Virus record (IMG/VR): IMGVR_UViG_3300042256_000013 | Location: 224,001 to 288,000 of that record | Length of the DNA stretch: 64,000 nt | Strand: one strand, 5' to 3' | Source of the DNA: a virus | Lineage: Duplodnaviria; Heunggongvirae; Uroviricota; Caudoviricetes | In this document: piece after piece, positions 2-63,396 of the stretch | Position numbering within the stretch: position 1 is the first letter of the stretch | How the letters are laid out: each line of letters starts with the position of its first letter | Notes under the pieces: generated by a model | The model's database searches: none | Told to the model about the DNA's origin: nothing | What the model saw: only the letters and a program-made list of their open reading frames with translations | Made by a program: the position numbers and the translations under genes

Positions 2-868
2 GTTACTAAAGGACAAAAGATTGGTACTGCAAATGGTGTATTCACCTTTGAAATAAGATTAGGTAGTGCAAACATTTATGGTTGGGGTGGAACAGTTGAT
101 CCTGGTTTATTCTACAGTACTGTAACTGGTAAAGGTGCAGATTGTGCAAATAAAAGTTTAACAGGTGGAAAACCTTCTAACCCTAATCCTAAACCTGCAA
201 CTTCATATTCTGAGAATAGTACAGATTTAGTAGTTATCACAACAGTTGGTAGCATTGGTTCTGGATATTCACAACGTGGTTCATTGCATGTTCCTAAACG
301 AACAAGCACCACTAAACGTAATTCTAATACGTCTGCAAGTGCACCAGCAGAGGATTTGTCAAACATTGATAAAACCGCAATTGGTTGGAAAGTATCTGCA
401 ACTGATTCTAAGTTACTTGAAGAAGTAAAAGAATTTGAAGGTACTATTCAATATCAAACTTCTGTTGGATATTACCGTAGTGGAAGATTCTGGATATATA
501 AAGATAGCTTAGGTTATCCAACAATTGGATATGGACATTTAATAACTGCTGCTGATAATTTCGCTGGTGGTATTGATGAAGCTCAAGCTGATGCATTATT
601 ACAGAAAGATTTAGCTCGTACTGTAAATGATGCGGCATCATTATATGCTCAATATAAGATGCAAACTCCTTATATATGCCAGATAGTACTTACCGAAATG
701 TGTTTCCAAATGGGTAAAGGAAAAGTTGCTAAATTTAAAAATACATTAGCAGCAATGGCAAGTGGTGATTATAGAGGTGCAGCCGCAGGTATTAGAAACT
801 CTGCATGGTATAGACAAACAACTCGTCGTGCTGAAATTATGGCACGTAGAGTCGAGTCCTGTCAATAA
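2..868 (+). CDS. 5'-truncated baseplate hub/tail lysozyme-like protein (degenerate M23-like segment, linker, T4-type lysozyme domain)
   Basis: Frame of ORF 284..868 stays open back to position 2 (VTKGQKIGTANGVFTFEIR...VDP). C-terminal FEG...YKDSLGYPTIGYGHL and SAWYRQTTRRA match GH24/T4 lysozyme motifs. Confidence 0.75.
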   Translation, partial: VTKGQKIGTANGVFTFEIRLGSANIYGWGGTVDPGLFYSTVTGKGADCANKSLTGGKPSNPNPKPATSYSENSTDLVVITTVGSIGSGYSQRGSLHVPKRTSTTKRNSNTSASAPAEDLSNIDKTAIGWKVSATDSKLLEEVKEFEGTIQYQTSVGYYRSGRFWIYKDSLGYPTIGYGHLITAADNFAGGIDEAQADALLQKDLARTVNDAASLYAQYKMQTPYICQIVLTEMCFQMGKGKVAKFKNTLAAMASGDYRGAAAGIRNSAWYRQTTRRAEIMARRVESCQ

Positions 869-871
869 ATA
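865..871 (+). promoter_or_regulatory. T4-like late promoter ATAAATA
   Basis: Motif recurs upstream of + strand structural genes at 1829, 5367, 17825, 23502, 24720, 25782, 31723. Confidence 0.7.
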
Positions 872-900
872 CTTGTACTGATTAATTCAGGAGGTATTAA

Positions 901-1389
901 ATGAGTAATTGGGTATTAACAAGTACAAATTCTAGCCTTTTAAATGATATTAAAAACTTCGAAGGTACAATTGCGTATCAAACTAAAGTTGGATATTATA
1001 AAGATGGTAAGTTTTGGACTTATAAAGATAGCTTAGGCTATCCAACAATTGGGTATGGTCATTTGATTTTATCTGGTGAGAACTTTAAACAAGGTCTTAA
1101 CGAAAGTCAAGCTAATGACCTTCTATCAAAGGATCTCGCATCTACCGTAGCTGATGCTAAATCTCTCTACGAACAATATAACATGAAAGGTGGAATTGAA
1201 CTACAGAAAGTTCTAACTCAAATGGTATTCCAAATGGGTAAAACTAAAGTATCTGCATTCAAAAACACTTTATCTGCTATGGGTCGTGCTGATTATAAAG
1301 CTGCTGCTAAAGGTATGCGTGATTCTGCTTGGTATAAACAAACAACTTCTCGTGCTGAATTGTTAGCACGTATTGTTGAATCGCTATAA
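901..1389 (+). CDS. T4-type lysozyme (GH24), paralog of the upstream domain
   Basis: FEG...YKDSLGYPTIGYGHL, MVFQMG, DSAWYKQTTSRA; RBS AGGAGG; own late-promoter motif at 865. Confidence 0.9.
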   Translation: MSNWVLTSTNSSLLNDIKNFEGTIAYQTKVGYYKDGKFWTYKDSLGYPTIGYGHLILSGENFKQGLNESQANDLLSKDLASTVADAKSLYEQYNMKGGIELQKVLTQMVFQMGKTKVSAFKNTLSAMGRADYKAAAKGMRDSAWYKQTTSRAELLARIVESL

Positions 1390-1399
1390 GGAATAACAG

Positions 1400-1789
1400 A
1401 TGGCAGTTATATTCAAAGGGTTTTCTTCTCCTGTAGTGGGAAAAACCGCAGTACTATATGATGTTGACATTGTTCGTCAAGATTTACTAAATCACTTTAA
1501 CACACGTAAAGGTGAAAGAGTAATGGATGTTGAGTACGGTTTTATTGGTTGGGATTTGCTTTTCGAAATAGATAGACCTGGGAACTCTCAACTTCTTGAA
1601 GCTGATGTTCGTCGTATAGTAGCACTTGATCCTCGATTGCAATTGCTATCTGTAACCGTATCAAGTGTAGAGTACGGTTATCGTATTGACCTATCTCTCT
1701 ATTACGTTCAATTAGAAAGTGTAGAAGATTTAGAATTAGTATTTGATAATCGTTCACAACAAAGAATGGCGTTCGTAAACGCTGCTTAA
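1400..1789 (+). CDS. Baseplate wedge subunit, gp25-like
   Basis: DLLNHFNTRKGERVM...G..DLLFE...DPR motif; position in baseplate cluster. Confidence 0.85.
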   Translation: MAVIFKGFSSPVVGKTAVLYDVDIVRQDLLNHFNTRKGERVMDVEYGFIGWDLLFEIDRPGNSQLLEADVRRIVALDPRLQLLSVTVSSVEYGYRIDLSLYYVQLESVEDLELVFDNRSQQRMAFVNAA

Positions 1790-1796
1790 CTTAATT

Positions 1797-1826
1797 AAAG
1801 GCTGACTTGGTTCAGCCTTTTCTTTT
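1797..1826 (+). terminator. Intrinsic terminator
   Basis: AAAGGCTGA/TCAGCCTTT stem plus T run. Confidence 0.75.
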
Positions 1827-1867
1827 GGATAAATATTTCTATATTATTATATGAGGTGTATATAAAC

Positions 1868-5332: not shown

Positions 5333-5334
5333 TA

Positions 5335-5358
5335 AAAGGGCATCTTCGGATGCCCTTT
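5335..5358 (+). terminator. Intrinsic terminator
   Basis: AAAGGGCATC-TTCG-GATGCCCTTT. Confidence 0.75.
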
Positions 5359-5410
5359 ATATTGCCATAAATAAAACAAATGAGAAAAAGAATTTTTATT
5401 GGAGAATAAA

Positions 5411-8400
5411 ATGGCGAACGAATTTAAATTTCAAGCTTCTAAAGTAGCTGAAGCAGTGAATCAAAAATTGTTCATTAAAAGATTACCAGAATGGATGCAA
5501 GGTCTAGAACAAATTCAAATGTTCTGCGACGATATTATCCAACAATGGTTTAATCCAGCAGATGAAGAAATCGTAGACGGTTATATCGGTGATCGCGGTA
5601 CACCTGCGGCTGCTGGAAAGATCTTCCTTAATGAATTAGACCTTCAACGTCAAGATTATCAGTTCAGTCCTGCATATGTATCCAGAAATGATGATACGAG
5701 TGTTCGTTCTCTTCAATTTTACCCTGATTTAGTAGGTTATTTGGAGCATTACGGTGCATTAACTGAGAATCAAGCACGTCTCTTAAGTGGGAAGTACTAT
5801 TCGTGGACGCCACCAATTAACCCAAACAAATTACAAAACTTTAGTTCCTATTTGTGGGATACAGAGAACGAATATGGTATTTCTCCAGACTATATCGTGA
5901 TGGAACGTGGTGCTTTAAACGGAAACACATGGTCATTACAGAACTTCTGGTATACTATTGGTCAAACTCTTCCAGATGGTACTATTGTAACTGAACAAAT
6001 GGCACAAGGAACACGTTTTAGTCGTGCTCAAGCTCCAATTATTGAATTTAACAAGAATATTGAACTAATCAACTACGGTACTAAGTATCGTGGTGAAGTT
6101 GATTATCTTTCTGATTCAATTAAGCCTGAAGATATCGTACAAAAGAACGTTAGTAACAACGTTCGTGTTGATGGATATATTCTACAAGCTGGTGATCGTA
6201 TTCTATTCACAAGTATTGGTAATTCTGGTGAAAATAACCGTATCTATAAAGTTTATATTAAACAAATGGCTGATGGTTCACGTGTTTATGGTCTTGTTCT
6301 TGATGAAGATGAAGAAACTATTGAACGCCCAACCGGAGAACCACTTGTAGGTGATGTAATTCTTGTTCGTAGTGGTAATACCTATGGAAATACCGCTGTT
6401 TATTGGAATGGTCGTGAATGGACAGAAGCACAAGCTAAAACGGGTACTAATGTATTCCCAATATTCCAATTATATGATAAAAATGGCATCAAACTGGATA
6501 ATAGTACTGTTTATCCTAATAGTACCTTTGCTGGTTCAAACTTATTCGGCCTAAAAATCAATTACAACTATGGAATGGATAAGATTTATCAAAAACATGT
6601 TGAATTGAGTGACTATAACTACTATATTTTTGAGAATTTCCTACAAACTATCCGTTATACATATTCAAAAGCTGGTGCATTAACAGAAATCCCTGGATTA
6701 TACTTCTATAATGTTATTTCTGTAGATTCAAATGGTGAAACTGTTCAAAACCTACATTCAGATTGGGTTCGTAGTACTGAAGAATCAAAACAAACTGTTC
6801 GTCAGGTTCCTGAAGTAACTAAATCATCAATGTATCGTGTTTTTAACACTGTTACAGAAATGACTTTGTTCAAAAATCCAGTAGAAAATATGTACGCATA
6901 TGTTATTGAGAATGATAATACCTATAAGTACTTTAAACCAGACAATAGTACGTTTATGAAATGGAATTTCATTACTGATGTTGCTATTCAATCTGATATG
7001 TACAAAACTACATATGAACTTGCTCAAAAAATTGATCCTAACAATACCGAAGAAACAATTGAAGTGTTCTTTAATGGTACAAAAACTTTTGATTATACAA
7101 CTAAGCTAACGTCAACTGGTTTAATTGACAGTATAGTCTTTAACAGTACTACAACTATTGTTGAAGATAGTATTATTGAAATTGTAACTTATAGTCCAAC
7201 TAAAGTTCCTGATTTAGAACTAGGTTCATATCAGATACCAATTAACTTACAGAATAATCCATACAATGATTTTGTTGATTATATTCATCAAGGTGAATAC
7301 ACTCCACATTTCTTAGATATTATTGGTAAAAATATCACAACTGGATCTGTAAATGACTTAAACAACTATGAAATTCGTTTAGAAGCTGGTCTGGTAGACA
7401 ACTCTGTTGGTACTAAAATTATTCAAAACGAAACATCTCTACTACCGTTGATGCTTCATAGTGCAAATGAAAACTTGGACTTGTTCAGTGCTATTATTTT
7501 CACTCAGTACGAATATTTCCGTTTCAAAAATAAATTTAACACTCAGATGATGAAGATGTATACAAATGATCCTGCTTCATTTATGTCTGAGAGTGCTTCT
7601 AACATTGTGGATATGATCTTCTCTGCTATAAACGTAGGTAAAGATAATTCATTTCCATTCTCGTTAGATAATGTAGGTTCTAATACTACAACTAATAAAA
7701 CATTTATACCACCTACTCCACAATTTTTGGGTATCCTTAAAGCGTATACACCAGAAAAAGCTACATACGTACACGTAGGTAGTTCAATTGGTTGCTATAA
7801 TATTGACCATATGGGTGTAATTAGCAAAGCGTACCGAGTAATTAACGGTGTAGATTTAATGGATGATGTTATATATGAATTAGAGAATCGTATTTTCTCA
7901 AGCATTGATAATACATTTAAGGCTATTGATTTCGTTCCAGCAATGGATTCTGAATTCTTGAAACCAACACCTTACTTTGAAAACACTGCATATAGTTCAG
8001 ATGAATATAATTCTCTTGAACTTCGCGGTTATGTGAACTTCATTGCAACTCAAGGTATTGATAACAGTACTCATAGCTATGACCAATCTAACTGGATGAC
8101 TTGGAACTACACCGGAACAACTTATGTTGTTGCCGGGCAACCAACTGACATTCCAGCACGTGGATCATGGAGAGCAATATATACTGACATGTTCGGAACA
8201 TATCGTCCAGCAACCCATCCGTGGGAAATGTTCGGATTTGCACAACGTCCAGACTGGTTTAACCAAGAATACGAACCAACTAAAGTTCGTTTAGGTACTT
8301 CAAGTTCAGAATATGTATATGTATATACCGCATACGTTACTGATGAACAAGGTGATTTAGTTCCAAGTGGACTATGGGATACAACTTCTGGTCAAGGTGA

Positions 8401-11400
8401 TGCAAGTACTGGTACAATCCTTCATGGTAAACGTGCTGGACAGTATAACCAATACAAACGCTTTGGTACACAACCATTTGAATTAGTTAGTACTGGCACA
8501 TTTGCAACTGATGGTGAAGAAATTTTTGAACTTAATCTAATTTCACCTGATGTTTTAGGTCTTGTTAGTGGTTCTCTATCACACATCAGCGAACCTTGGG
8601 CTTATGGTGATATGGGTGAGATGGAATTCACTTATATGAATACCGTAATGTATGCATACGATAAAGTCATGGCACTCCTACGTGCTAAGCCTGGCCAGTT
8701 TGCTAATTACTTCTATGATACAAAGGGAAGTACTGTTCAACAAATTACAAGTGATGGTTATCAATTCTTGTACGGTGATACTAATAAACGTTTGAACTTT
8801 AATTCCAGTACTGTTGTGCATGGAGAAAATAATCAACGTATTCTTGGTTATCAAACTTGGGTAAGTGATTATTTGACTTACCAAAATAAAAATATAACTA
8901 CTAACTATGGTGATGTTCTTCGTTCTTCATATATAAATGTTGGACATAGAATTGGTGGATATACTAAACAAGATCAACTAACATTTAGTTCTGATTCATT
9001 TGGTTTAGTATCTCAAGAAAACCAACACATCGGATTAGTAAAAAGTTCTGCATTCCGTGATGAAGCATTAAGTGCTGTTAAAATTCAATGGACAGGTTCT
9101 GGTTATTCAATTAGTGGTTATGACCTTGTAGGTGCTAAATTAAATTATAAACTACCAAATAAAACTGGTCGTCGTGTATCAGTTACCGTTGGTAAACGTT
9201 CTGTTGTTCATTATAACGAATATCTTGAACAATATGGTTCATATGAATATGGAACCTTACTTAAAACTTTCCAAGAAGTTTATACCTTCTTGTGTGGTTA
9301 TGGTGAATATCTTGAAGATAGAGGATGGATTTTTGAAGATGTTGATGCTGATGGTGTCACTCAAGATTGGTCTGTAATCGGTAAAGATTTTATTTCATGG
9401 AGTGCAACTGCCCCAGCAGTTGGTGAATTTATTTCCGTATCACCAAGTACTAAAAATGCTAAATTCGGTACTGCATTTGGTTCAGTTCAATCAGTAACAC
9501 AATTTAATGGTGGAGTATGGTCATTACTTGATGATGAAAATAGTGGTATTCGTCCATTCGAAATTGATACATCACGTATCGGTAATGTTTTCAGTGTTCG
9601 AATTGAAGATGATATTGATAAGCGTATGGCATTAATTCGTGTTAGTGTTGTTTCATATGAACATGCAGTAATTTTCGATGATAAAACTATTTTTGGTAAC
9701 AACATTTATATGCCTAAGTATGGTGTAATCCATGAAATGCTTAAAATGTATGGTTACATCACTGGTTCATGGAATGGTCGTTTAGAAGCTCCTGGATTCA
9801 TAATCCTCGAAGCTGGAACAATGCCTGATTTTGAAAAATTAGTTGATGATTTCAGAAGTTATTACGATACAGATCACCCTGTAGACAATGTTACACTACG
9901 TAATCTTGCTCGTCACTTGATTGGTTTCCAAACTCGTGATTATATTTCTCAAATGATTACAAGTGATACTTCACAAATTGATTTCTATAAAGGATTCATT
10001 CGTGATAAAGGTACTAATCAAGTATTTGAACGTGTACTTCGTGTATCTAAGTCATACAACACTGATAATTATAAAGCATTGCAAGAATGGGCATTTAAAA
10101 TTGGTGAATATGGTAACATTTATGGTAAAAAACATCTTCAGTTCCAACTAATAAACAATGAATTTGCACAAGAGCCTCAAATGTTTACATTTGATTCTGA
10201 TGTAAGTACTGATAGTACTGAAAATAATATTGTATATTATGGAACACAAGGTGAAGATTCTCGTTGGATCACTCGTCCAAATGGATCATTCTCATTCCCT
10301 GTACGTACAGGAAGAAGTGAACGTATTCATTTGCCAGACATTGGACCAGTAACTCTTGATGAAGTATCTTATAGTACTCGTGATTTTACTACTGCATATG
10401 CAGATCGTCTATCCTTTATTTCCAACACTGATAAAACACCTACTTCGGTATGGGTATTCCGTGATATGGATAATAATTGGAACATTTATGAGTTAGAAAA
10501 TACTGGAATCACTCTTTCTTCTATCACACCAATTGGTGAAGATAGTTATACCGGAAATCATTGTACTTTACAATTAAGTGCAGCACATGGTATGGAAGAT
10601 GGAGACTATTTCTTCTTCGTAGATGAATCTGAATATATGCCTGATTTGCTAAAAGCTGAAACTCAGTACTTTACAACTGGTTCAGACCCAACAAGTTTTG
10701 TAATACCATTAGATGTAACAAATACTATCAACTTCTCTGATAATAATCCAGTACTATACCGTTATATTAATCGTTTTAGTACGGCTGCTGATAAAACAGC
10801 ATATATTACTAAGAAATATTCATATGAAGCACCTGAAAGTACTTTATTTGTTCGTCCAACAACATACAATGATGAAACTAACGTAACTGAATTGTACATG
10901 AACGTATATGACCCAATCAATGGTGTTATTCCAGGTAGTATCATGACAGACATTACTTATGTAAGTCCAGTAGATCCTGCTAAGTATAACAGTGAAGATG
11001 AAACAATACAAGCATGGGGTTCAGAAAAAGTTGGTCTAGTGTGGTGGAACACAACTAATGCATTCTTCATGGACTATACCCGTCCAATTTATGCTGCTGA
11101 TGGTACAGTAGATGAAGAAGCAACTAATAGCTATAAACGTTACAATTGGGGTAAACTATTACCTAATTCTGAAATTAATGTTTTAGAATGGGTTTCTTCA
11201 CCATATCCTCCGTATGAATGGGATAAGTATTGTGAACGTCAAGCTAAGTTGAATAAAGATAATACATCTTGGATTCCAAGTGGTGAAGCTATCGATGATT
11301 TCTTCTCAGTATTCCAAGAATATGATGAAAGTACTAATGCATATAAGACTGTTTACTATTTTTGGGTTAAAAACGCAATCTACGTTCCTAAAGTTAAGAA

Positions 11401-14400
11401 TCGTAACAAGCCATGTAATGAATTGTCTCGTACTATTCAAGACCCATCGCAGCTAAATGCTCCTTGGTTCTCACCAATTAGTCAAAATTCATTCATCATT
11501 AGTGGTCTTCAACAAGAAATTACTGATGATAAGAGCATTCTAAGTATTACATATCAAAATGATGCTACTGAAGTTATTAAACATGAGCAGTATCAATTAT
11601 GTAAAGAAGGAATGGATTATAACTTCAATCCTGTTATTTGGAATTCAATGTGGAATTCTTTGATTTCTCAAGAAACTTTACCTAACGGTACAGTACTTGA
11701 ATTGAATTATCCAACTAATGATACTGGTATTTTACCAGGGGAAACATGGTTCGAAGATGTAATTGAAGCTCGTAGAACATTCGTTGATTCAGCGAATGCA
11801 ATTTACAAAACAATTAACGTAACAACTGATGCTGTAACAATGGCTGATGTGTTTAACGTAAAAACTGTAGAAGATAATCCAAATCTTATCAGTTTTAAAG
11901 TACTAAACTATAATAACGAACTTGTAATTAATCCTACAACGGATGCATTCGTTGAGAATGATGCAGTACTTGTAAGTTCAAATGGTACTCTACCAGAGCC
12001 ATTGAATTCAACAACAGTGTACTTCGTCCACTTCGATGAAAATAATTATATTCGTTTAATGAACTCACCAAGTACTGGTGGAACTGCTGTATATATTACA
12101 TTAGAAAATCGTGGTGAAGGTCAACATAAGATGATTAAACAATCAGATTATATTGAATCACTTGGAACATCACTTGATATGACTCAATACTGGACACTAG
12201 CTGACTGGTATGACATTGGATATAATGAAAATACTACATACACTGATGAAACAAGCATTGATGTAGCTAATACCAAAAATTATCAAGAAGGTGACGTTAT
12301 TCGTATTATCGATGCAGATGGTGTTTGGACATTATATGTTAAAACATTATCAAGACAAGTTGTTATTTGGCAAGCTATCGCACGTCAAAACAGTACAGTA
12401 GCATTGAATAATCAGTTATACAACAACTACGAAAAATATAATTCAGATGGTTCATTGACTAATGTTGAGATTAACGTTCGTAAGGCATTAGCTTTACTCA
12501 AAAATTCTTTCAACACTACTCAAAGTCGTTTAGTATTTGACATGGTTAAGTACGTTCATACTGAACAAACTGTAGTATCATGGGTATTCAAAACATCTTA
12601 TATCTATATTGTTGGTTTAGAGCAATCTTTACAACAAAATAGCAGTACTGATAATTTGATTAATCAAATCGTTGAATATTTTGAAGAAGTTAAACCATAC
12701 AGAACTAAAATTCGTTCTCAGATTGAACAGAAAACCTCTAATACCGACCAAATGACAGGTATCAGTAATGATTTAGATCCTAACGGATATGTCTTTGTAA
12801 ACGGAGCTTGGGTTAAAACTCAACCTGATATTTGGGATTATGAGTATGCTCAATTTAATACAACAACTGGAAAATGGGAAATTGTAGGTTCACTACCAAG
12901 TAATTTCACACCACCGAATCGTCGATTCCAAGAATCGTATGAATTGATGGTTTATGATAATTTCCAATGTACACCAGATGATGATTTAGATGATGCACTT
13001 ACTTTAGAAGCAATTAATAATTCTTACATGAGTAATTCAAATGATATTCTAACTTCAGGCAATCATTATAAACTTCAACGTTATTCATTTACATATCCTG
13101 TAATTGACAACGCAGCAATTGATAATAATGTATTATCTGGAATTAGTGCGATTTATCCTGATATGAATCTTGATTTACCACTTGAAGATGCTATTAAAGC
13201 TAAACTTGTTGAATATAAAGATGATGTACAATTATCTGAACAATTCGATAATGATCTTCAACGTGTATATGAATCTGTAATTGGTTCTGAACCTACTGTT
13301 ACAACAGCAACACAATATGGTCAATATAATACATTAGCTAACCGTCGCAGATTGTATACACAACTAAGTGATAGTACTATTTCTCAAGAAATGAACTGTC
13401 CATTTAAAGGACGTGTATTATCTGACAACTTGAACACTCGTTTACCATTTGGTTACTCCGGTTCTAATGGTGAAACTTATGGATATGCTCTATATAGTCG
13501 TGAACTATATGAGAAATTTGTATCTCTTGTTCAAGAAGCTAACCCAACATTCACTGATGATGAAATCAATAATTACCTCGTGTATGAATATGGTTTATAT
13601 CCTTGGAAATATGACATGGGAAGTACTGATGCTAATACTGGTGAATTGAATGGTAAAAACTATCTTGATACATTATATGTTCTAACAGCAATGTTGAACA
13701 CATATAATCCAGATGCAGTTGATACATTCGAAATTGCTCGTCAAATTTTGGCAAGACCAACGATTGACATGTACTGTATGGTTATGATTCCACGTAAACT
13801 TGCTTTTGTTAAGAATGTTAATACTGATGAATTCTTATCCGTTCCGATGGATATAAGTTTAGATGAATTTATGCAAACTGCATTGATCGTGAATAATGAT
13901 GTAATTGCACTTACTGATATAAATCTAAATGATTTAGAACTTGATATTAATAATCCGTTGTATGATGAAATTCAAGATGTATTAACTGGTTTTAATGGAT
14001 CACAATTCCTTAATGATGCTAATGCATTTGATAGCTTCGGTTTAGATTCTCAAACTAAAAATATTACATATTATGCGTCTGGAACAGTTAACACTACTCA
14101 AGACCCAACATTTGTTGATATTACTGAAATCAATCCTCTTGGCCTTGATTCAGCACAATTGAGATTCACGGTTAATGGATATGGGTACGATACTTCTGGT
14201 AACTTACAACTTAAATCATTTGGTAACTTCCAAATTGAAGGACATGTTCTATTGAACCCTTACAATACTAAGGAAGCTATAGTGAGTATTCCTCGCTATA
14301 ATCAAGCAATTGAATATATGCAAAGAAATTTGATTTCTAGAAATGAAATTCGTTATTCTTATAAAGTACAAGATATTATCAATACTACTGGTACTGTTCG

Positions 14401-15430
14401 TCTTGTTCAGGATAATGACTTCGTTGTTGGTGAGAAAGTGATGGTGTTTACGCCTGAAGCTTTAGATTATGATGTTAATATGGCTGATGGAACTTGGCAA
14501 ACAATTCTACCAGTTGCTAATATCAAAACTGGTACTAGACCGAAGATTTATACTATCAGTTCTGTAAGTAATGATACAATTCGCTTAGGTGGATTTACCA
14601 CTTCCAGCACGTATGATAGTGAATCTGATGCTCTAATGAATCCAGGAAAACCAACAGCAATTACTATTGTTCGTATCACCTCTTTCAACGATGCGTCGTT
14701 TGTTAGTGGTAGTATTGCAAAATACAGTACTGACCGTTCATATCGAATTGATATTCTTGATTATGACTTGTTCTATGATAGAATGCTTAAGAGTGAAACG
14801 TATACTGATAATTACAGTACTGATGATTACGATGATTGGTACGTTTCTAATGAAATAGTTGATGTTAATGGTGTTGAAGTTGACCACGGATATTATCTAC
14901 CAATTTATGGTAAAGGTGTACTAAGTGAACTTGTTCGTACTAAAATGGATGACAGTCTACAAATATTCGTTTACGAATATTCAGATATTAATCCTATTAA
15001 AAGTGGTAACACTTGGACTTACAGTGGAACTTTAGTTGATAATGTTTATATAAGTGATAAAGACTCATCATTAGTTGTTGCAATTTCGGATTCATTACAA
15101 CATCTGGAATATGTATCAGTACCAACACATGTTGAAAGTACTTCTATCACCGATGGTATTTTGACAAGCACAAACTCTGTTCAAGCAGATTTGATCGCAG
15201 TTAATAATGAAGTTGTATTACTACGCAATAACAATAACATGTTAAGATCTATGTATAATACAGTTGAAAACAATTATGAAGCAGGAACAACATATACTAA
15301 ATTAGGTGTTATTCTTGGTAAAGAGGAAAATATGGATGTGTATGCAAACAATTACCCTCAAATACCATTGAGTACATTTAGTAATGGTTATGTAGTGAAT
15401 GGGGCAGTAATTGGACAATTACTACAATAA
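5411..15430 (+). CDS. Giant (3339 aa) baseplate/virion structural protein
   Basis: 10 kb ORF after gp6-like gene, late-promoter motif, GGAG RBS before ATG 5411, EVKPYRTKIR motif seen in large baseplate wedge proteins. Confidence 0.7.
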   Translation: MANEFKFQASKVAEAVNQKLFIKRLPEWMQGLEQIQMFCDDIIQQWFNPADEEIVDGYIGDRGTPAAAGKIFLNELDLQRQDYQFSPAYVSRNDDTSVRSLQFYPDLVGYLEHYGALTENQARLLSGKYYSWTPPINPNKLQNFSSYLWDTENEYGISPDYIVMERGALNGNTWSLQNFWYTIGQTLPDGTIVTEQMAQGTRFSRAQAPIIEFNKNIELINYGTKYRGEVDYLSDSIKPEDIVQKNVSNNVRVDGYILQAGDRILFTSIGNSGENNRIYKVYIKQMADGSRVYGLVLDEDEETIERPTGEPLVGDVILVRSGNTYGNTAVYWNGREWTEAQAKTGTNVFPIFQLYDKNGIKLDNSTVYPNSTFAGSNLFGLKINYNYGMDKIYQKHVELSDYNYYIFENFLQTIRYTYSKAGALTEIPGLYFYNVISVDSNGETVQNLHSDWVRSTEESKQTVRQVPEVTKSSMYRVFNTVTEMTLFKNPVENMYAYVIENDNTYKYFKPDNSTFMKWNFITDVAIQSDMYKTTYELAQKIDPNNTEETIEVFFNGTKTFDYTTKLTSTGLIDSIVFNSTTTIVEDSIIEIVTYSPTKVPDLELGSYQIPINLQNNPYNDFVDYIHQGEYTPHFLDIIGKNITTGSVNDLNNYEIRLEAGLVDNSVGTKIIQNETSLLPLMLHSANENLDLFSAIIFTQYEYFRFKNKFNTQMMKMYTNDPASFMSESASNIVDMIFSAINVGKDNSFPFSLDNVGSNTTTNKTFIPPTPQFLGILKAYTPEKATYVHVGSSIGCYNIDHMGVISKAYRVINGVDLMDDVIYELENRIFSSIDNTFKAIDFVPAMDSEFLKPTPYFENTAYSSDEYNSLELRGYVNFIATQGIDNSTHSYDQSNWMTWNYTGTTYVVAGQPTDIPARGSWRAIYTDMFGTYRPATHPWEMFGFAQRPDWFNQEYEPTKVRLGTSSSEYVYVYTAYVTDEQGDLVPSGLWDTTSGQGDASTGTILHGKRAGQYNQYKRFGTQPFELVSTGTFATDGEEIFELNLISPDVLGLVSGSLSHISEPWAYGDMGEMEFTYMNTVMYAYDKVMALLRAKPGQFANYFYDTKGSTVQQITSDGYQFLYGDTNKRLNFNSSTVVHGENNQRILGYQTWVSDYLTYQNKNITTNYGDVLRSSYINVGHRIGGYTKQDQLTFSSDSFGLVSQENQHIGLVKSSAFRDEALSAVKIQWTGSGYSISGYDLVGAKLNYKLPNKTGRRVSVTVGKRSVVHYNEYLEQYGSYEYGTLLKTFQEVYTFLCGYGEYLEDRGWIFEDVDADGVTQDWSVIGKDFISWSATAPAVGEFISVSPSTKNAKFGTAFGSVQSVTQFNGGVWSLLDDENSGIRPFEIDTSRIGNVFSVRIEDDIDKRMALIRVSVVSYEHAVIFDDKTIFGNNIYMPKYGVIHEMLKMYGYITGSWNGRLEAPGFIILEAGTMPDFEKLVDDFRSYYDTDHPVDNVTLRNLARHLIGFQTRDYISQMITSDTSQIDFYKGFIRDKGTNQVFERVLRVSKSYNTDNYKALQEWAFKIGEYGNIYGKKHLQFQLINNEFAQEPQMFTFDSDVSTDSTENNIVYYGTQGEDSRWITRPNGSFSFPVRTGRSERIHLPDIGPVTLDEVSYSTRDFTTAYADRLSFISNTDKTPTSVWVFRDMDNNWNIYELENTGITLSSITPIGEDSYTGNHCTLQLSAAHGMEDGDYFFFVDESEYMPDLLKAETQYFTTGSDPTSFVIPLDVTNTINFSDNNPVLYRYINRFSTAADKTAYITKKYSYEAPESTLFVRPTTYNDETNVTELYMNVYDPINGVIPGSIMTDITYVSPVDPAKYNSEDETIQAWGSEKVGLVWWNTTNAFFMDYTRPIYAADGTVDEEATNSYKRYNWGKLLPNSEINVLEWVSSPYPPYEWDKYCERQAKLNKDNTSWIPSGEAIDDFFSVFQEYDESTNAYKTVYYFWVKNAIYVPKVKNRNKPCNELSRTIQDPSQLNAPWFSPISQNSFIISGLQQEITDDKSILSITYQNDATEVIKHEQYQLCKEGMDYNFNPVIWNSMWNSLISQETLPNGTVLELNYPTNDTGILPGETWFEDVIEARRTFVDSANAIYKTINVTTDAVTMADVFNVKTVEDNPNLISFKVLNYNNELVINPTTDAFVENDAVLVSSNGTLPEPLNSTTVYFVHFDENNYIRLMNSPSTGGTAVYITLENRGEGQHKMIKQSDYIESLGTSLDMTQYWTLADWYDIGYNENTTYTDETSIDVANTKNYQEGDVIRIIDADGVWTLYVKTLSRQVVIWQAIARQNSTVALNNQLYNNYEKYNSDGSLTNVEINVRKALALLKNSFNTTQSRLVFDMVKYVHTEQTVVSWVFKTSYIYIVGLEQSLQQNSSTDNLINQIVEYFEEVKPYRTKIRSQIEQKTSNTDQMTGISNDLDPNGYVFVNGAWVKTQPDIWDYEYAQFNTTTGKWEIVGSLPSNFTPPNRRFQESYELMVYDNFQCTPDDDLDDALTLEAINNSYMSNSNDILTSGNHYKLQRYSFTYPVIDNAAIDNNVLSGISAIYPDMNLDLPLEDAIKAKLVEYKDDVQLSEQFDNDLQRVYESVIGSEPTVTTATQYGQYNTLANRRRLYTQLSDSTISQEMNCPFKGRVLSDNLNTRLPFGYSGSNGETYGYALYSRELYEKFVSLVQEANPTFTDDEINNYLVYEYGLYPWKYDMGSTDANTGELNGKNYLDTLYVLTAMLNTYNPDAVDTFEIARQILARPTIDMYCMVMIPRKLAFVKNVNTDEFLSVPMDISLDEFMQTALIVNNDVIALTDINLNDLELDINNPLYDEIQDVLTGFNGSQFLNDANAFDSFGLDSQTKNITYYASGTVNTTQDPTFVDITEINPLGLDSAQLRFTVNGYGYDTSGNLQLKSFGNFQIEGHVLLNPYNTKEAIVSIPRYNQAIEYMQRNLISRNEIRYSYKVQDIINTTGTVRLVQDNDFVVGEKVMVFTPEALDYDVNMADGTWQTILPVANIKTGTRPKIYTISSVSNDTIRLGGFTTSSTYDSESDALMNPGKPTAITIVRITSFNDASFVSGSIAKYSTDRSYRIDILDYDLFYDRMLKSETYTDNYSTDDYDDWYVSNEIVDVNGVEVDHGYYLPIYGKGVLSELVRTKMDDSLQIFVYEYSDINPIKSGNTWTYSGTLVDNVYISDKDSSLVVAISDSLQHLEYVSVPTHVESTSITDGILTSTNSVQADLIAVNNEVVLLRNNNNMLRSMYNTVENNYEAGTTYTKLGVILGKEENMDVYANNYPQIPLSTFSNGYVVNGAVIGQLLQ

Positions 15431-37107: not shown

Positions 37108-38487
37108 TTACGCCACTTGTTGTTCAAGTTCGTAATGAACTGTCACACCAAATGGAGCTTCTACTTTAGGGTTTGAATGAATTACAAACATTGTATCACA
37201 ATAATTTGGATCACCCCATGAACCCCACGGTTCACCATCCGTAAACATTACTAATTGTTTTGGACAGTAATCATCTTCTTTCATGAAATCCCATACTTTA
37301 GTAAACAAAGTACCGCCACCACCACGAACAGGATACTGAAGAATTTGCTGTTCTTGTCCAGTGGTATAATCATGTACTTCATAAATTTCAGTGTCAAATG
37401 TGAGAACACGAATTTTGAATTGTGAGAATTGTTTGGTCATACCATAAACTTCTGATAAGAAGTCTTGTAGCCATTCTGCACGAATACTACCAGATGCATC
37501 TAATGCAATGCAAATATCAATATCCTCATCAGGTTTCATTCCTGGATAGATAGGCATACCATATCCAATTCCATTAGACCATGAACGTCTGTTCGGCATC
37601 ATGTATGTTACATCATTTTTAATCAAAGAACGTAAAGTACGGTTCAATTTAGAACGCCAGTCAATCTTAGGTTCTTTGAATTCCTGAACCATAGCACGAA
37701 TTTCTGGAGGTGCACCATGTGCTGCCATAGCTGCGTTAATCATTGCATCTTTAAATGCATCCATGAATCCTTCGAGTTCTTCTGGTGAAAAACTTGGAAA
37801 TTCATCATTTTCATCATTTTCACCATCACCATCACTATCATCACCAGATGATGGATCTCCTTGTTGTGGAATATCATGTTGGTCTAATGTTCCACCACCA
37901 GTACCTCGTCCACCGCCGCCAGATTCTTCTTGTTCCTTACGATCCATAAGAATGTTGTAAATTTCTTCAGCAGGCATCTTATCAAATTCAGGAGAGAATA
38001 ACCAAGATTTACGAATTTCACCAAGTGCTTTATCTCGTTCAATAATTTGGTTAATTGCATAATCAGCAGCTTTATTCCACATCTTAGCATCTCGTGTACC
38101 TTTACGCAAGAAGTGATTATAAGCACAATGAAGAATTTCATGACATACTGCTGCGATTAAATTTTGTTGAGTTAATCCATTCAGAGCATCATTAATTTGT
38201 TCAGTAGTGAGATCATCAATACTATCACGAAGCCTGTCTTCGTATTCTTGACGGCGAGTTGGGTCTTCGATACCCATAATAAACTCTACATTGTAGTAAA
38301 GATGCTTACCATCTACTGCCAATGTACGGCACCAAGTATTATTAGCAATTGGTTCTAATTGAGCAGCCAGTACCCCAAAGAATGGACATGCCATAATCAT
38401 AGTTGTACGTGCTATAATAAGTTTTTCAAAGCATTCTTTTGCTAATGTTTCAGATACTTCATATCTAGTGTATTTTTTTGTTGTCAT
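37108..38487 (-). CDS. DUF2201-type metallopeptidase-like + vWA domain protein
   Basis: HEILH (HExxH), WNKAADYAIN, DASGS MIDAS, GGGGT.F, FTDG; RBS GAGG before ATG 38487. Confidence 0.85.
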   Translation of the reverse strand: MTTKKYTRYEVSETLAKECFEKLIIARTTMIMACPFFGVLAAQLEPIANNTWCRTLAVDGKHLYYNVEFIMGIEDPTRRQEYEDRLRDSIDDLTTEQINDALNGLTQQNLIAAVCHEILHCAYNHFLRKGTRDAKMWNKAADYAINQIIERDKALGEIRKSWLFSPEFDKMPAEEIYNILMDRKEQEESGGGGRGTGGGTLDQHDIPQQGDPSSGDDSDGDGENDENDEFPSFSPEELEGFMDAFKDAMINAAMAAHGAPPEIRAMVQEFKEPKIDWRSKLNRTLRSLIKNDVTYMMPNRRSWSNGIGYGMPIYPGMKPDEDIDICIALDASGSIRAEWLQDFLSEVYGMTKQFSQFKIRVLTFDTEIYEVHDYTTGQEQQILQYPVRGGGGTLFTKVWDFMKEDDYCPKQLVMFTDGEPWGSWGDPNYCDTMFVIHSNPKVEAPFGVTVHYELEQQVA

Positions 38488-38503
38488 AAAATCCTCAAAT
38501 AAC

Positions 38504-38525
38504 AAAAGGGGCATAAGCCCCTTTT
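38504..38525 (-). terminator. Intrinsic terminator between MoxR and vWA genes
   Basis: AAAAGGGGC-ATAA-GCCCCTTTT. Confidence 0.7.
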
Positions 38526-48329: not shown

Positions 48330-48367
48330 TATTAATCTCCCAATAATTTAAGGAATAATCTTTAATG

Positions 48368-48375
48368 TATTTATA
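48368..48375 (-). promoter_or_regulatory. Late promoter TATAAATA (tail tube)
   Basis: Full T4 late consensus; related minus-strand sites at 47595, 48853, 51610, 52615, 53440. Confidence 0.75.
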
Positions 48376-48384
48376 AAGTTTTTA

Positions 48385-48825: not shown

Positions 48826-48867
48826 TGTTAATCTCCATAAAGTTGTTTGAACTATTTATGAGATAAA

Positions 48868-48898
48868 CAAAAAAGAAAAGGGAGCCATCGGCTCCCTT
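48868..48898 (-). terminator. Intrinsic terminator after sheath
   Basis: GGGAGCC-ATC-GGCTCCC stem with A runs. Confidence 0.8.
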
Positions 48899-48908
48899 AA
48901 TTGTTTAA

Positions 48909-61628: not shown

Positions 61629-61653
61629 GATGCACCTCAAGTTAATTAAAATC

Positions 61654-61682
61654 AGTGTAGCACATCAGGTCTAAGCGGTCAA
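61654..61682 (-). promoter_or_regulatory. Sigma70-like promoter of 2H phosphoesterase gene
   Basis: TTGACC-N17-TACACT with TGTGC extension. Confidence 0.6.
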
Positions 61683-61683
61683 A

Positions 61684-61824
61684 TTAAAGACCGAAGATTT
61701 TTGCTACAGATAGAACAAACCCAGCAGCTACGATAGTGCCAAGTGTTGTGATGATTGGGTTAACGGCGAATGATGTTTTGTACATCATTACTAAGCCTAA
61801 GAAGTGATTTCGGATAGTTTTCAT
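61684..61824 (-). CDS. Small membrane protein (46 aa; not in ORF track)
   Basis: Hand translation MKTIRNHFLGLVMMYKTSFAVNPIITTLGTIVAAGFVLSVAKIFGL; RBS AAGGA. Confidence 0.6.
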   Translation of the reverse strand: MKTIRNHFLGLVMMYKTSFAVNPIITTLGTIVAAGFVLSVAKIFGL

Positions 61825-61842
61825 ATTAATTCCTTTTAAATG

Positions 61843-61868
61843 AAAAAGCCCCACCGAAGTGAGGCTTT
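61843..61868 (-). terminator. Intrinsic terminator
   Basis: AAAGCCCCAC-CGAA-GTGAGGCTTT (UUCG loop on minus strand). Confidence 0.8.
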
Positions 61869-61881
61869 GTAGTACTGGCTA

Positions 61882-63396
61882 TTAACCAAGTACTTGATAA
61901 CGTGGGGCATCGATTACGCGAAGCATAACCTGTACTGGATCTACTTCCTCACCGCTCAGAATTGCTTCCAGAACGCTTGGAGAGAAACCACTTACCAGAG
62001 CTACGTTATTCTGGTCGAAACGAACAGGGTTGTTACCCGGACGTGCGTTAAGGTTCCAGAAGACGATAGTTGGAAGTTCATAACCCGCTGCTGCGAAGTC
62101 TGCTTTCGCAGAGTTGTACGCCGTGGCGTTCCAACCACCCGCATTACTTGGGTTGAATTCCATATCAGACAGAACAATTAAGTTCTTAGGCATCTGATCT
62201 GCTGGTACTTGCTGAGCTTTCGCTACACGCAGTACTTCACGGAATGCCGCCTGAATGTTTGTGCTACCACCCCAGAACTGACCAGCACGATAGCCCATCA
62301 GATCACGGTACTTAGCAGCAATGTTAATACCTTGCAGTTCAAACATGCGTGGCTGAGTACTGAAGTTCAGGAACAAGTTCTTGAACGCACCTTCTTGCTT
62401 ATCAGCGATGTACAGACCCAAAGAAATCGCAACGTTCATACAGGTCATGCCTGTATTACCAGCAGGACAGTTCATTGAAGAACTGGTATCTACCATTGGG
62501 ATTGCTTTGTTGTCGCCCATGAAGTTACGCAACTGTTCCCATTGAGCAACGCCCAAAGTCTCAGCAGCAATACCGTTCGCCAAACGAGTTGTTACATCGT
62601 ATGGATACAGAGCACCAGCGTTTACCTTCACTTCACCTTTCTCGATTGAAGAAAGGAACTCGCGGTAACGAGCTTCATCACGCTTCATGAACGCAGGAAG
62701 ATAACGAGCACTCGCAACTGATGGAAGCTTGCTGTATTCGATTTCATCCCATTCGTTCGCACACATCTTCTGTTCAACAGTGTTGCTCAGAGATGACAGA
62801 AGCTTACGATAAGCACGTTCGTTGATGTTCATGGTGGTCATGATCTCACGAGCGATTTTGTTGTTCGCAGCACGATTTTTGTTCGCAGTAGTGTTCATAT
62901 CAATAACGCCAGAAGCGTTTTTCTTGAACTTGTATACACGTGGCAACCACTTAGCACACAATGCGTTACCAGCGGTCAACGCTTCAGAGATTGCCTGGTA
63001 AGCCAGAGTCTTTGCTGCTGCTGTTTTGAAGATCAACAGATCATCCCAGCGACCGAAGTCTGCCAGTACTGGAATCACACGCAGTACTGCATCAGGGTGC
63101 TTAACTTCAAGGTACTTCAAAAGTTCACGAGGGGTATTACGCTCACCCGCACCACCACGAATATCACGTGCCCAAAGAATCATCTGCAAAGCAAGCGTCG
63201 GGTTAGCTTCGTATGCTGCGTCAAATGAATTTTTATACACACCAAGATCTTTGCCACGCAAAGAACCGATCATGAAGAACAGATCGACCAATGGATTCAG
63301 CGTACTTTTCAGTGAAGCTGCACCATTTGCAGTGGTAGAACGGTTTTGTGATGCTGTAGTGTTTACGTTGTTTACTGCGTTTTTAAATGCTGACAT
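61882..63396 (-). CDS. DUF2828 / TROVE(Ro60)-like protein with vWA domain
   Basis: T.NGA, ARDIRGGAGER, GRWDDL, AKWLPR, VEQKMCA, VDTSSSM MIDAS, SDMEF, IVFWNL, VSGFS. Confidence 0.85.
   Translation of the reverse strand: MSAFKNAVNNVNTTASQNRSTTANGAASLKSTLNPLVDLFFMIGSLRGKDLGVYKNSFDAAYEANPTLALQMILWARDIRGGAGERNTPRELLKYLEVKHPDAVLRVIPVLADFGRWDDLLIFKTAAAKTLAYQAISEALTAGNALCAKWLPRVYKFKKNASGVIDMNTTANKNRAANNKIAREIMTTMNINERAYRKLLSSLSNTVEQKMCANEWDEIEYSKLPSVASARYLPAFMKRDEARYREFLSSIEKGEVKVNAGALYPYDVTTRLANGIAAETLGVAQWEQLRNFMGDNKAIPMVDTSSSMNCPAGNTGMTCMNVAISLGLYIADKQEGAFKNLFLNFSTQPRMFELQGINIAAKYRDLMGYRAGQFWGGSTNIQAAFREVLRVAKAQQVPADQMPKNLIVLSDMEFNPSNAGGWNATAYNSAKADFAAAGYELPTIVFWNLNARPGNNPVRFDQNNVALVSGFSPSVLEAILSGEEVDPVQVMLRVIDAPRYQVLG

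What the first reader, a model, noticed from the sequence alone, without database searches (positions are those of the whole stretch)
116..63088. Highly iterated palindrome AGTACT across the whole window
Seen: AGTACT (the ScaI site) recurs constantly. By eye I count at least 13 in 1-5400 (116, 685, 1450, 2155, 2528, 3358, 4001, 4562, 4679, 4877, 5030, 5162, 5261), at least 28 in 5400-15430 and at least 14 in 59.7-63.1 kb. At roughly one-third GC (estimated by eye) chance is about one per 3 kb, so this is roughly 7-fold or more. It occurs in all three codon frames (AGT-ACT Ser-Thr; xxA-GTA-CTx Val-Leu; xAG-TAC-Txx, e.g. Gln-Tyr), in genes on both strands, in structural and non-structural genes, and between genes (61871). 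It is often extended to AGTACTG/CAGTACT. Established: phages normally avoid 6-bp palindromes, and the known enrichment case is cyanobacterial HIP1, linked to methyltransferases. Inference: the genome carries a selected or mutationally driven DNA mark, such as a phage methylase/repair target, a binding site for a genome-organising, packaging or recombination protein, or a self-recognition tag. I know of no description of this for such phages, but have not searched.
Basis: partly seen in the sequence, partly recalled or inferred. Interest (0 to 1): 0.85.

Follow-up and report, generated by a model that had tools for sequence, protein, structure and literature searches.

The report
Hyper-abundant AGTACT word in jumbo phage
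This giant phage of enteric bacteria carries the six-letter palindrome AGTACT about nine times more often than chance, codon use or protein sequence can explain; an unrelated small prophage family does the same, the word is not a methylation mark, and what reads it is still unknown.

Summary
The window has 154 AGTACT sites (about 20 expected). Its 371-kb genome, a Rak2/GAP32-like jumbo phage closest to Erwinia phage Kaldavass, has 1087 (about 104-125 expected). AGTACT is the commonest hexamer and the only enriched 6-bp palindrome; GCGC and many others are purged.

The excess survives amino-acid-preserving codon shuffles (929 vs 240 ± 13). It occurs in all three frames and is denser in non-coding DNA. 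Ser-Thr has become the most over-represented dipeptide.

Individual sites turn over, but density holds at 850-1115 per genome in five relatives, and spacing is more even than random.

Tested and rejected:
- methylation (published nanopore data on Kaldavass; the SPPY methylase is missing from two rich relatives)
- one-step repair drive
- SlmA sites
- a shared AP2-like protein

New here: a 32-kb Enterobacteriaceae prophage family has the same word with the same flanks at 15 times expectation. It shares no DNA-binding gene found in all the jumbo relatives, and it has an AGTACT-poor relative. This favours a host-encoded symmetric reader, or one present at the moment of infection, but none is identified.

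This scan has reported the same signal on many other genomes.

The parts
116..63088 (.). AGTACT-saturated DNA: 154 sites, one per 416 bp. 146 lie inside called genes on both strands and 8 lie wholly or partly outside them.
   Evidence: positions; 154 vs 20.2 +/- 4.5 in shuffles; 146 in CDS vs 37.4 +/- 5.4 after synonymous shuffling; 94 of 160 Ser-Thr dipeptides are written AGT-ACT.
5399..15430 (+). 3343-aa virion structural gene carrying 28 AGTACT sites. It is the largest single contributor and the main gene used in the seven-genome conservation test.
   Evidence: annotated 'virion structural protein' in Kaldavass.
61871..61894 (.). Pair of sites 18 bp apart. The first (61871-61876) lies in the gap between two minus-strand genes; the second (61889-61894) lies just inside the 3' end of ORF 61882..63396. 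An example of non-coding occurrence.
   Evidence: Genome-wide, non-coding density is 4.1 per kb against 2.8 per kb in coding DNA.
10205..10219 (.). Closely spaced pair, 9 bp start to start, inside the large structural gene. Similar pairs lie at 29442/29451 and 30309/30318.

Best explanation
AGTACT, in its extended form (T)(T)nCAGTACTGn(A)(A), is a word read on double-stranded DNA. The phage lineage keeps it at a set density, about one per 340 bp, rather than at fixed positions.

The most likely reader is a two-fold symmetric (dimeric) sequence-specific DNA-binding protein that does not methylate the site. Dense and even loading of that protein on phage DNA is what is selected. It may mark, organise or protect the genome, or bias transcription towards it. 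The jumbo phages have additionally built the word into their early promoters.

Shown: the excess, its independence from coding, the turnover with constant density, the shared flanks in two lineages, and the exclusions listed under rivals.

Inferred: that a protein reads it, that it is symmetric, and where it is encoded.
For: 1. DNA-level and strong.
- 1087 sites vs 104-125 expected in the genome; 929 vs 240 +/- 13 under amino-acid-preserving shuffles, in all three frames; denser in non-coding DNA.
- 62% of Ser-Thr dipeptides are written AGT-ACT. Ser-Thr is the most over-represented dipeptide (752 vs 512 expected; Thr-Ser 506). Val-Leu, Gln-Tyr and Lys-Tyr are also raised.

2. Symmetric reading. 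Flank preferences mirror each other: C at -1 and G at +6 favoured, G at -1 and C at +6 avoided, T at -3/-4 and A at +8/+9.

3. Density is held, not position.
- In 18 orthologous genes across seven genomes, five genomes keep 86-94 sites and Munch and fEgEco12 keep 67 and 75, although only 62% down to 13% of sites are positionally shared.
- Conversion of one-off words into AGTACT is 2-3 times the genome norm in the three deeper comparisons (GAP32, Yen9-04, fEgEco12; top 0.4-2% of words) and 1.3 times, unremarkable, against Kaldavass.
- The same codons are conserved more inside sites than outside, OR 1.5-3.2.
- Whole genomes of five relatives hold 850-1115 sites vs 137-174 for the reversed control word.
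- Spacing in the genome body is more even than random: CV 0.87 vs 1.00 +/- 0.035.

4. Convergence.
- A 31-34 kb siphovirus-type prophage family of Leclercia, Enterobacter and Escherichia has 140 sites vs 9 expected, with the same flank rules and no GCGC.
- Its only proteins with a detectable homologue in the jumbo genome are a lysozyme domain and a sporadic AP2-like protein.
- Its Atlantibacter relative (TerL 45% identical) has 2 AGTACT and 70 GCGC.

5. Timing. Of 31 composite promoters (AGTAC-TTGnnn, 15-19 nt, TAnn[AT]T), 18 lie in the 19-kb early region that equals the virion terminal repeat. These promoters must fire before phage proteins exist (inference).
Against: - No reader has been identified, here or in the earlier reports of this scan.
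- The host genome shows no enrichment: CAGTACTG occurs 78 times in E. coli K-12 against 60 for the control word. A host reader would therefore have no obvious chromosomal role at such sites.
- An Enterobacteriaceae prophage related to the rich family lacks the word. A universal host reader does not predict this.
- Positional retention of whole sites is only modestly above that of an average hexamer, which a mutational drive would also produce.
- The small prophage does not use the promoter arrangement of the jumbo phage.
- Sequence searches cannot exclude a small or fast-evolving phage-encoded reader.
Confidence: 0.5

Rival explanations
1. Each lineage encodes its own reader. The jumbo phages and the small prophages each carry a DNA-binding protein for AGTACT that is too small, too divergent or too novel to be matched by sequence.
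For: - The trait follows phage lineage, not host: the Atlantibacter relative of the rich prophages is poor, and host DNA is not enriched.
- Most non-structural proteins of the small prophage have no Pfam family, so unrecognised DNA binders are likely.
- A 465-aa P-loop protein and the AP2-like protein are kept by all rich small prophages examined.
Against: - Identical core and identical flank rules in two lineages that share no candidate gene.
- BLASTP and phmmer all-against-all found only a lysozyme domain and the AP2-like protein.
- The AP2-like protein is absent from three rich jumbo genomes.
- The jumbo genome has no TetR, HU or YbaB family protein and only sub-threshold HTH_3 matches.
- Early promoters carrying the word must work before phage proteins are made (inference).
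Confidence: 0.22
2. There is no reader with a function. A biased mutation, repair or gene-conversion process acting on these phage genomes keeps creating AGTACT, as has been proposed for cyanobacterial HIP1.
For: - Sites turn over quickly and are re-created at 2-3 times the norm at the deeper divergences.
- Whole-site retention is near that of average hexamers.
- About half of all coding opportunities are occupied, even at the cost of amino-acid composition. A drive achieves this more easily than weak per-site selection does.
Against: - None of the nine one-mutation neighbour pairs is clearly depleted; O/E runs from 0.73 to 3.7, and eight of the nine are above 1. No precursor pool is being drained.
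- Spacing is more even than random, and synonymous positions inside sites are conserved more than outside. A blind drive does not predict either.
- No enzyme shared by the two lineages could carry such a drive.
- A host-encoded drive should also enrich host DNA, and it does not.
Confidence: 0.12
3. AGTACT is the target of a phage DNA methyltransferase or other base modification. This was the first reader's leading option, and two first-stage notes on this same genome propose an m4C methylase.
For: The genome encodes a PF01555 enzyme with the SPPY motif typical of N4-cytosine methylases (motif rule from my own knowledge) and a small C5 methylase. Cyanobacterial HIP1 is linked to methylases (my knowledge).
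Against: - Nanopore comparison of native and amplified Kaldavass DNA reported GATC, CCWGG and TGCAT, not AGTACT, although that genome has 1114 AGTACT sites (PMC11780129).
- The SPPY enzyme is present in Kaldavass, GAP32 and Yen9-04 but absent from Munch and fEgEco12, which have 850 and 1115 sites.
- The small prophage shares no methylase with the jumbo phage.
- The SPPY enzyme is better placed to explain the unassigned TGCAT mark (inference).
Confidence: 0.04
4. The sites hijack or act as decoys for the host nucleoid-occlusion protein SlmA, whose 12-bp site GTGAGTACTCAC has AGTACT at its centre.
For: The central six bases are the same. SlmA is the only known enterobacterial protein I could name whose site has an AGTACT core; its taxonomic range was not checked here.
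Against: - SlmA strongly requires G1, T2, A4 and G5 and a purine at position 3 (PMC3020112).
- Neither the jumbo genome nor the small prophage has a single GTRAGYRCTYAC site.
- SlmA-type half-site flanks are under-represented among AGTACT sites: 32 vs 57 expected, and 2 vs 8.4.
- G at position 3 is the most avoided flank base, 64 of 1087 sites.
Confidence: 0.02

Closest known systems
HIP1 (GCGATCGC), the highly iterated palindrome of cyanobacteria (Elhai 2015, PMC4390886; Xu, Lawrence & Durand 2018, PMC5861425).
   Same: A short palindrome many-fold over-represented throughout a genome, in genes in all frames and between genes, beyond what codon use explains, with an unknown reader.
   Different: - Here the carriers are phages, one lytic jumbo lineage and one temperate family, and not their hosts.
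- The word is A+T-rich with a TA centre.
- No cognate methylation is found, and no methylase is common to the carriers.
- The phages otherwise purge palindromes.
SlmA-binding sites (GTGAGTACTCAC) of the E. coli chromosome (Tonthat et al. 2011, PMC3020112)
   Same: A dispersed palindrome with the same central AGTACT, read by a dimeric helix-turn-helix protein that acts when loaded on DNA.
   Different: The flanks that SlmA needs are absent and even avoided. There are about 50 chromosomal SlmA sites (52 ChIP-seq peaks, PMC3020112) against 1087 sites in 371 kb here. The phage has no TetR-family protein.
Chi (GCTGGTGG), read by RecBCD, and Chi-rich lambdoid phages
   Same: A short word kept at high density whose count, not its exact position, matters. 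It acts as a 'this DNA is to be spared' signal for a translocating enzyme.
   Different: Chi is asymmetric and orientation-dependent and is enriched in the host itself. AGTACT is a palindrome and sits at chance level in E. coli K-12.
Genome-coating phage proteins that repress early promoters (SPO1 TF1, phi29 p6)
   Same: They bind all over the phage genome, with preferred sites in early promoters.
   Different: TF1 belongs to the HU family and the jumbo genome has no HU-family gene. Neither TF1 nor p6 reads a defined 6-bp palindrome (my knowledge). The small prophage shows the word without the promoter arrangement.

Membership tests
Highly iterated palindrome (HIP1-type) | A short palindrome many-fold over-represented genome-wide, beyond base composition and codon usage | tested here: met
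   1087 vs 104-125 expected; 929 vs 240 +/- 13 under synonymous shuffling.
Highly iterated palindrome (HIP1-type) | Present in all reading frames and in non-coding DNA | tested here: met
   Frames 468 / 139 / 322 vs 134 / 32 / 74 expected; non-coding 4.1 per kb vs coding 2.8 per kb.
Highly iterated palindrome (HIP1-type) | Association with a cognate DNA methyltransferase acting on the palindrome or its core (Elhai 2015; from my knowledge) | tested here: not met
   No AGTACT modification in Kaldavass (PMC11780129). The SPPY methylase is absent from two rich relatives.
SlmA-binding site | 12-bp palindrome GTRAGYRCTYAC with G1, T2, A4 and G5 required | tested here: not met
   0 full sites; half-site flanks 32 vs 57 expected; requirements taken from PMC3020112.
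Restriction-modification or orphan methylase target | The base in the site is modified in virion DNA | tested here: not met
   Published nanopore comparison on the closest relative lists other motifs only. It was not measured on this phage itself.
Restriction-modification or orphan methylase target | The enzyme is present wherever the word is enriched | tested here: not met
   absent from Munch and fEgEco12; none shared with the small prophage.
Very-short-patch-type repair drive | Depletion of the one-mutation precursor word or words | tested here: not met
   The nine neighbour pairs have O/E 0.73-3.7, eight of them above 1.
Chi-like signal for a translocating nuclease | Asymmetric word with strand or orientation bias | tested here: not met
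   The word is a palindrome with mirror-symmetric flanks.
Chi-like signal for a translocating nuclease | Density rather than position conserved | tested here: met
TF1/p6-type genome-coating phage protein sites | Phage encodes the coating protein (HU family for TF1) | tested here: not met
   No PF00216 match at E <= 1.
Operator of a phage-encoded AP2-like (PHROG 953 C-terminal half) protein | The protein is present in every AGTACT-rich genome and predicts enrichment | tested here: not met
   Absent from Kaldavass, Yen9-04 and fEgEco12 by protein and profile search. Close homologues sit in the AGTACT-poor phages TS9 and ORH_001.

The most novel reading that the evidence does not exclude
A protein encoded by the Enterobacterales host reads (C)AGTACT(G), and two unrelated phage lineages have independently saturated their genomes with its site so as to load it densely on their own DNA. 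This would be a convergent, sequence-encoded hijack of a host DNA-binding protein.

One concrete candidate worth an EMSA is the nucleoid protein YbaB. It is a small dimer whose preferred sequence in E. coli is unknown, while its Borrelia orthologue EbfC reads GTnAC (PMC9610160). My estimate for YbaB specifically is about 5%.
Probability: 0.3. Interest if true: 0.9.

Novelty: new variant of a known kind. Interest (0 to 1): 0.74.

Why it matters
Phages are textbook avoiders of short palindromes, and this one has removed GCGC completely. A palindrome held at nine to fifteen times expectation is a strong signal of an unknown DNA-reading system: it reshapes the proteome and has arisen in two unrelated phage lineages of the same host order.

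It could also reveal the specificity of a poorly understood host protein.

In practice, the word is a simple compositional marker for these phage lineages in metagenomes and for prophage boundaries. In the E. coli example, both AGTACT and GCGC switch exactly at the insertion junctions.

Tried and rejected
1. One-step repair drive. No neighbour word is clearly depleted.

2. Order-4 Markov model. It nearly absorbs the excess (924 vs 1087), but it is built from AGTAC and GTACT, so it is circular. Orders 0-3 leave a 2.4 to 10-fold excess.

3. The SPPY (m4C-type) methylase P0001 as cognate enzyme. Rejected by published nanopore data and by its absence from Munch and fEgEco12.

4. P0003/P0004, the only DNA-related protein shared by the jumbo and small lineages (window 57651-58271, minus strand). 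It is widespread in more than 1500 phage records. It is absent from three rich jumbo genomes by protein and profile search. It is present in the AGTACT-poor phages TS9 and ORH_001. It is neither necessary nor sufficient.

5. PHROG 2467 (the 465-aa protein kept by the rich small prophages). The weak jumbo match is only the P-loop of a Pnk-like ORF.

6. TetR, HTH_3, HU and YbaB families in the phage. None passes its threshold.

7. SlmA. The flanks are wrong and are avoided.

8. Other hits of the viral-contig scan. Most are local coding repeats, for example 27-bp collagen-like Gly-X-Y units with GGC-AGT-ACT, not genome-wide enrichment.

9. Dense-cluster search in E. coli K-12: none. The Leclercia-type provirus has no nucleotide match in E. 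coli genomes or phage isolates.

10. A strict sigma-70 consensus scan missed the phage's own promoter form. A motif-based count was used instead.

11. Read-end pile-up test for nicking at AGTACT.

Full report
**What the window is.** The 64-kb window is bases 224001-288000 of a 371,104-bp phage genome. Megablast places it among the Rak2/GAP32/CBB-like jumbo phages of Enterobacterales. The closest relatives are Erwinia phage Kaldavass (89%) and Xanthomonas phage XbC2 (88%). The window holds baseplate, tail, head and nucleotide-metabolism genes on both strands.

- The window has 154 AGTACT sites against 20.2 +/- 4.5 in dinucleotide-preserving shuffles (largest 34).
- The genome has 1087 against 104-125 expected.
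- AGTACT is the commonest hexamer. It is the only 6-bp palindrome that is enriched, while many others are absent (GGTACC, CTGCAG, CAGCTG, GGATCC and more), and GCGC occurs zero times in 371 kb.
- Of the sixteen xGTACy words, AGTACT has 1087 and the next has 260, so GTAC frequency is not the cause.
- The flanks are mirror-symmetric. C at -1 and G at +6 are favoured, G at -1 and C at +6 are avoided, and T at -3/-4 and A at +8/+9 are favoured. This gives (T)(T)nCAGTACTGn(A)(A).

**It is not a coding artefact.**
- Shuffling synonymous codons within each gene leaves 240 +/- 13 sites against 929 observed. The three frames each show a 3.5 to 4.3-fold excess. The window alone gives 146 against 37.4 +/- 5.4.
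- Shuffling codon order lowers the expectation further, to 138. The amino-acid order itself therefore favours the word.
- Ser-Thr is the most over-represented dipeptide (752 vs 512 expected; Thr-Ser 506), and 62% of Ser-Thr pairs are written AGT-ACT.
- Val-Leu preceded by a codon ending in A, and [Lys/Gln/Glu]-Tyr followed by a T-initial codon, use the word in about half of all opportunities.
- Non-coding DNA is denser (4.1 per kb) than coding DNA (2.8 per kb).

**How the sites behave in evolution.** Every relative tested is enriched. Five whole genomes hold 850-1115 sites against 137-174 for the reversed control word. I aligned 18 orthologous genes from seven genomes, codon by codon.
- Five genomes keep 86-94 sites in these genes, and Munch and fEgEco12 keep 67 and 75. 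Only 62% (Kaldavass) down to 13% (fEgEco12) of this genome's sites are at the same position in the other genome.
- Whole-site retention is only modestly above that of the average hexamer.
- Conversion of one-off words into AGTACT is 2-3 times the norm and in the top 0.4-2% of all words in the comparisons with GAP32, Yen9-04 and fEgEco12. Against the close relative Kaldavass it is 1.3 times the norm and unremarkable.
- Given the same amino acid, the codons AGT, ACT, GTA and TAC are conserved more inside sites than outside (pooled OR 1.5-3.2, p down to 8e-7).
- In the genome body the spacing is more even than random: CV 0.87 against 1.00 +/- 0.035, with fewer very short and very long gaps.

What is maintained is therefore a density, not a set of positions.

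**Anatomy in this genome.** Density is highest (6.3 per kb) in the first 19 kb. By homology, this region is the virion's direct terminal repeat. Its inner edge maps to the PhageTerm-defined end of fENko-Kae01, to the annotated repeat boundary of CBB, and to position 1 of the XbC2 and Munch records. The region is full of small early genes.

Their promoters have the form AGTAC-TTGCA (-35-like), 15-19 nt, TAnn[AT]T. Six carry a second AGTACT ending 1-3 nt before the -10, so the two copies lie about two helical turns apart. Of 31 such composites in the genome, 18 are in this 5% of it. They still account for only about 3% of all sites.

**Methylation is excluded as the general cause.**
- The genome encodes one PF01555 enzyme with an SPPY motif (N4-cytosine type; motif rule from my knowledge) and one small C5 methylase. 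Two first-stage notes on this genome proposed the former as the cognate enzyme.
- The paper that describes Kaldavass compared native and amplified DNA by nanopore. It found GATC, CCWGG and TGCAT modified, not AGTACT (PMC11780129), although Kaldavass has 1114 AGTACT sites.
- The SPPY enzyme is present in Kaldavass, GAP32 and Yen9-04 but absent from Munch and fEgEco12, which are just as rich.
- No one-mutation neighbour of AGTACT is clearly depleted, so a very-short-patch-type conversion is also excluded.

**A second, unrelated carrier, and what it shares.** A scan of viral contigs for tight triplets of the extended site returned a family of 31-33 kb proviruses at about 41% GC.
- One complete member has 140 AGTACT sites against 9 expected. 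CAGTACTG is its commonest octamer. It has the same flank rules as the jumbo phage and no GCGC, GGTACC, CTGCAG or CAGCTG. It gives 101 vs 25 sites under synonymous shuffling, and 52 of its 83 Ser-Thr pairs are AGT-ACT.
- It is a siphovirus-type temperate phage. Relatives lie in Leclercia, Enterobacter and Escherichia.
- In E. coli FDN-24 it is inserted in ybhA by a large serine recombinase. The prophage has 57 AGTACT (11 expected), and its only 8 GCGC all lie in an inserted IS3. The host flanks have 1 AGTACT and 129 GCGC.
- A relative in Atlantibacter (TerL 45% identical, similar GC) has 2 AGTACT and 70 GCGC. The trait is therefore labile within the family.
- Palindrome usage of the rich prophages tracks that of the jumbo phage (rho 0.69) better than the poor relative does (rho 0.33).
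- E. coli K-12 holds CAGTACTG at chance level, 78 against 60 for the control.

**Search for a reader.** All-against-all BLASTP and phmmer between the small prophages and every ORF of the jumbo genome found only two shared families. One is a T4-type lysozyme domain. The other is a protein of about 210 aa (window 57651-58271, minus strand) that matches the C-terminal half of PHROG 953 'HNH endonuclease' and carries an AP2-like motif.

It looked like the obvious candidate, but it fails.
- It belongs to a mobile family present in more than 1500 phage records.
- It is absent from Kaldavass, Yen9-04 and fEgEco12 by both protein and profile search.
- Its closest homologues elsewhere sit in AGTACT-poor phages.

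A 465-aa protein kept by the rich small prophages shares only a P-loop with a jumbo ORF. The jumbo genome has no TetR, HU or YbaB family protein and only sub-threshold HTH_3 matches.

SlmA, whose site has the same centre, needs G1, T2, A4 and G5 and a purine at position 3 (PMC3020112). Neither phage has one full site, and SlmA-type flanks are under-represented.

**Reading.** The symmetry of the word and its flanks, the control of density and spacing, the extra synonymous conservation and the lack of any modification point to a dimeric DNA-binding reader. Two lineages share the exact flank rules but no gene that could read them, and the jumbo phages put the word into promoters that must fire at time zero. 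I therefore favour a reader that is host-encoded, or at least present at entry (about one chance in three).

The main difficulties are that host DNA is not enriched and that a related prophage of the same host family lacks the word. A lineage-specific unrecognised phage reader (0.22) and a functionless drive (0.12) remain open.

One concrete lead is host YbaB. Its E. coli sequence preference is unknown, while Borrelia EbfC reads GTnAC (PMC9610160). This is a lead from the literature, not a result.

**Novelty.** I found no paper describing this signal. This scan has reported it on many other genomes (71 notes on at least 43 genomes), always without a reader.

- exclusion of the methylase by its distribution;
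- the explicit shared-gene test and the rejection of its only hit;
- the rich/poor contrast inside one prophage family;
- the sharp switch of AGTACT and GCGC at prophage junctions;
- the even-spacing result;
- the mapping of the densest zone to the terminal repeat.

Noticed in passing
Genome C1:19058-19174 (outside the window; L010:19058-19174): A perfect tandem array (AGTACTGGAT) x 11.7, giving 12 AGTACT one helical turn apart. It begins about 20 bp beyond the conserved block GACTTCAGGAACAGATATAGCGGAAGGGGG, which holds the terminal-repeat boundary of CBB and maps to the physical end of fENko-Kae01. At that spot Kaldavass has one AGTACT, CBB has two, and fENko-Kae01 has two 10 bp apart, 27 bp from the DNA end. 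It is a recent slippage expansion; whether it has a function is unknown.
   Followed up: partly
Whole genome; window 1-64000: GCGC is absent from all 371 kb, where composition predicts several hundred. The window has zero copies of GGTACC, CTGCAG, CAGCTG, CGTACG, GGATCC, GAGCTC, GTCGAC, CCATGG and GCATGC, one GATATC and two ACTAGT. This is a broad palindrome purge, with AGTACT as the lone exception.
   Followed up: partly
window 57651-58271 (-); paralogue at genome 120191-120817 (-): A 206-aa protein matching the C-terminal half of PHROG 953 ('HNH endonuclease') with an AP2-like motif and no match to the profile's N-terminal half. It is the only DNA-related protein shared with the small AGTACT-rich prophages, but it is sporadic among jumbo relatives. 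GAP32 has a split copy and an intact copy, Munch has one, and Kaldavass, Yen9-04 and fEgEco12 have none.
   Followed up: yes
L089 (E. coli FDN-24 chromosome 1171035-1220680), prophage at locus about 12.3-46.6 kb: The small AGTACT-rich prophage is inserted in ybhA next to a large serine recombinase. It carries its own pyridoxal-phosphatase-like gene at the other end, apparently replacing the gene it disrupts. An IS3 inside it holds all 8 of the prophage's GCGC.
   Followed up: partly
L080 (Atlantibacter subterraneus NZ_JAPTZM010000004.1:179926-201746): A prophage related to the AGTACT-rich family (TerL 45% identical, 42% GC) has only 2 AGTACT (6.8 expected) and 70 GCGC. It offers a natural rich/poor contrast for finding the determinant.
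   Followed up: partly
Genome 303029-303724 (-) (L007:1462-2322): An SPPY-motif (N4-cytosine type) methylase shared with Kaldavass (97%), GAP32 and Yen9-04. It may be the enzyme behind the unassigned TGCAT modification reported for Kaldavass but not for Hallingskeid (inference; whether Hallingskeid has the gene was not checked).
   Followed up: partly
window 36736-38925 and 47022-49121: The two longest AGTACT-free stretches of the window, 2.2 and 2.1 kb. The first covers the 468-aa ORF 37108..38514, whose Kaldavass and GAP32 counterparts are annotated HNH endonuclease / DUF2201. They could mark more recently acquired DNA.
   Followed up: no
window-wide, e.g. 5399-15430 and 25848-31010: ACTGGT, CTGGTG, TGGTAA and CTGCTG are also strongly over-represented (ACTGGT 79 vs 16). 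This probably comes from Thr-Gly and Gly-Thr rich repeats in structural proteins (Gly-Thr and Thr-Gly are among the most enriched dipeptides).
   Followed up: no
L018, L043, L053 (viral contigs): Regular 27-bp arrays carrying CAGTACTG in unrelated viral contigs are collagen-like Gly-X-Y coding repeats, with Gly-Ser-Thr written GGC-AGT-ACT. They are a source of false positives when scanning for this word.
   Followed up: yes
window 55359-55772 (-): A 137-aa ORF with a YqeY-like domain (PF09424, E 1.2e-6), seen while scanning neighbours of the candidate gene.
   Followed up: no
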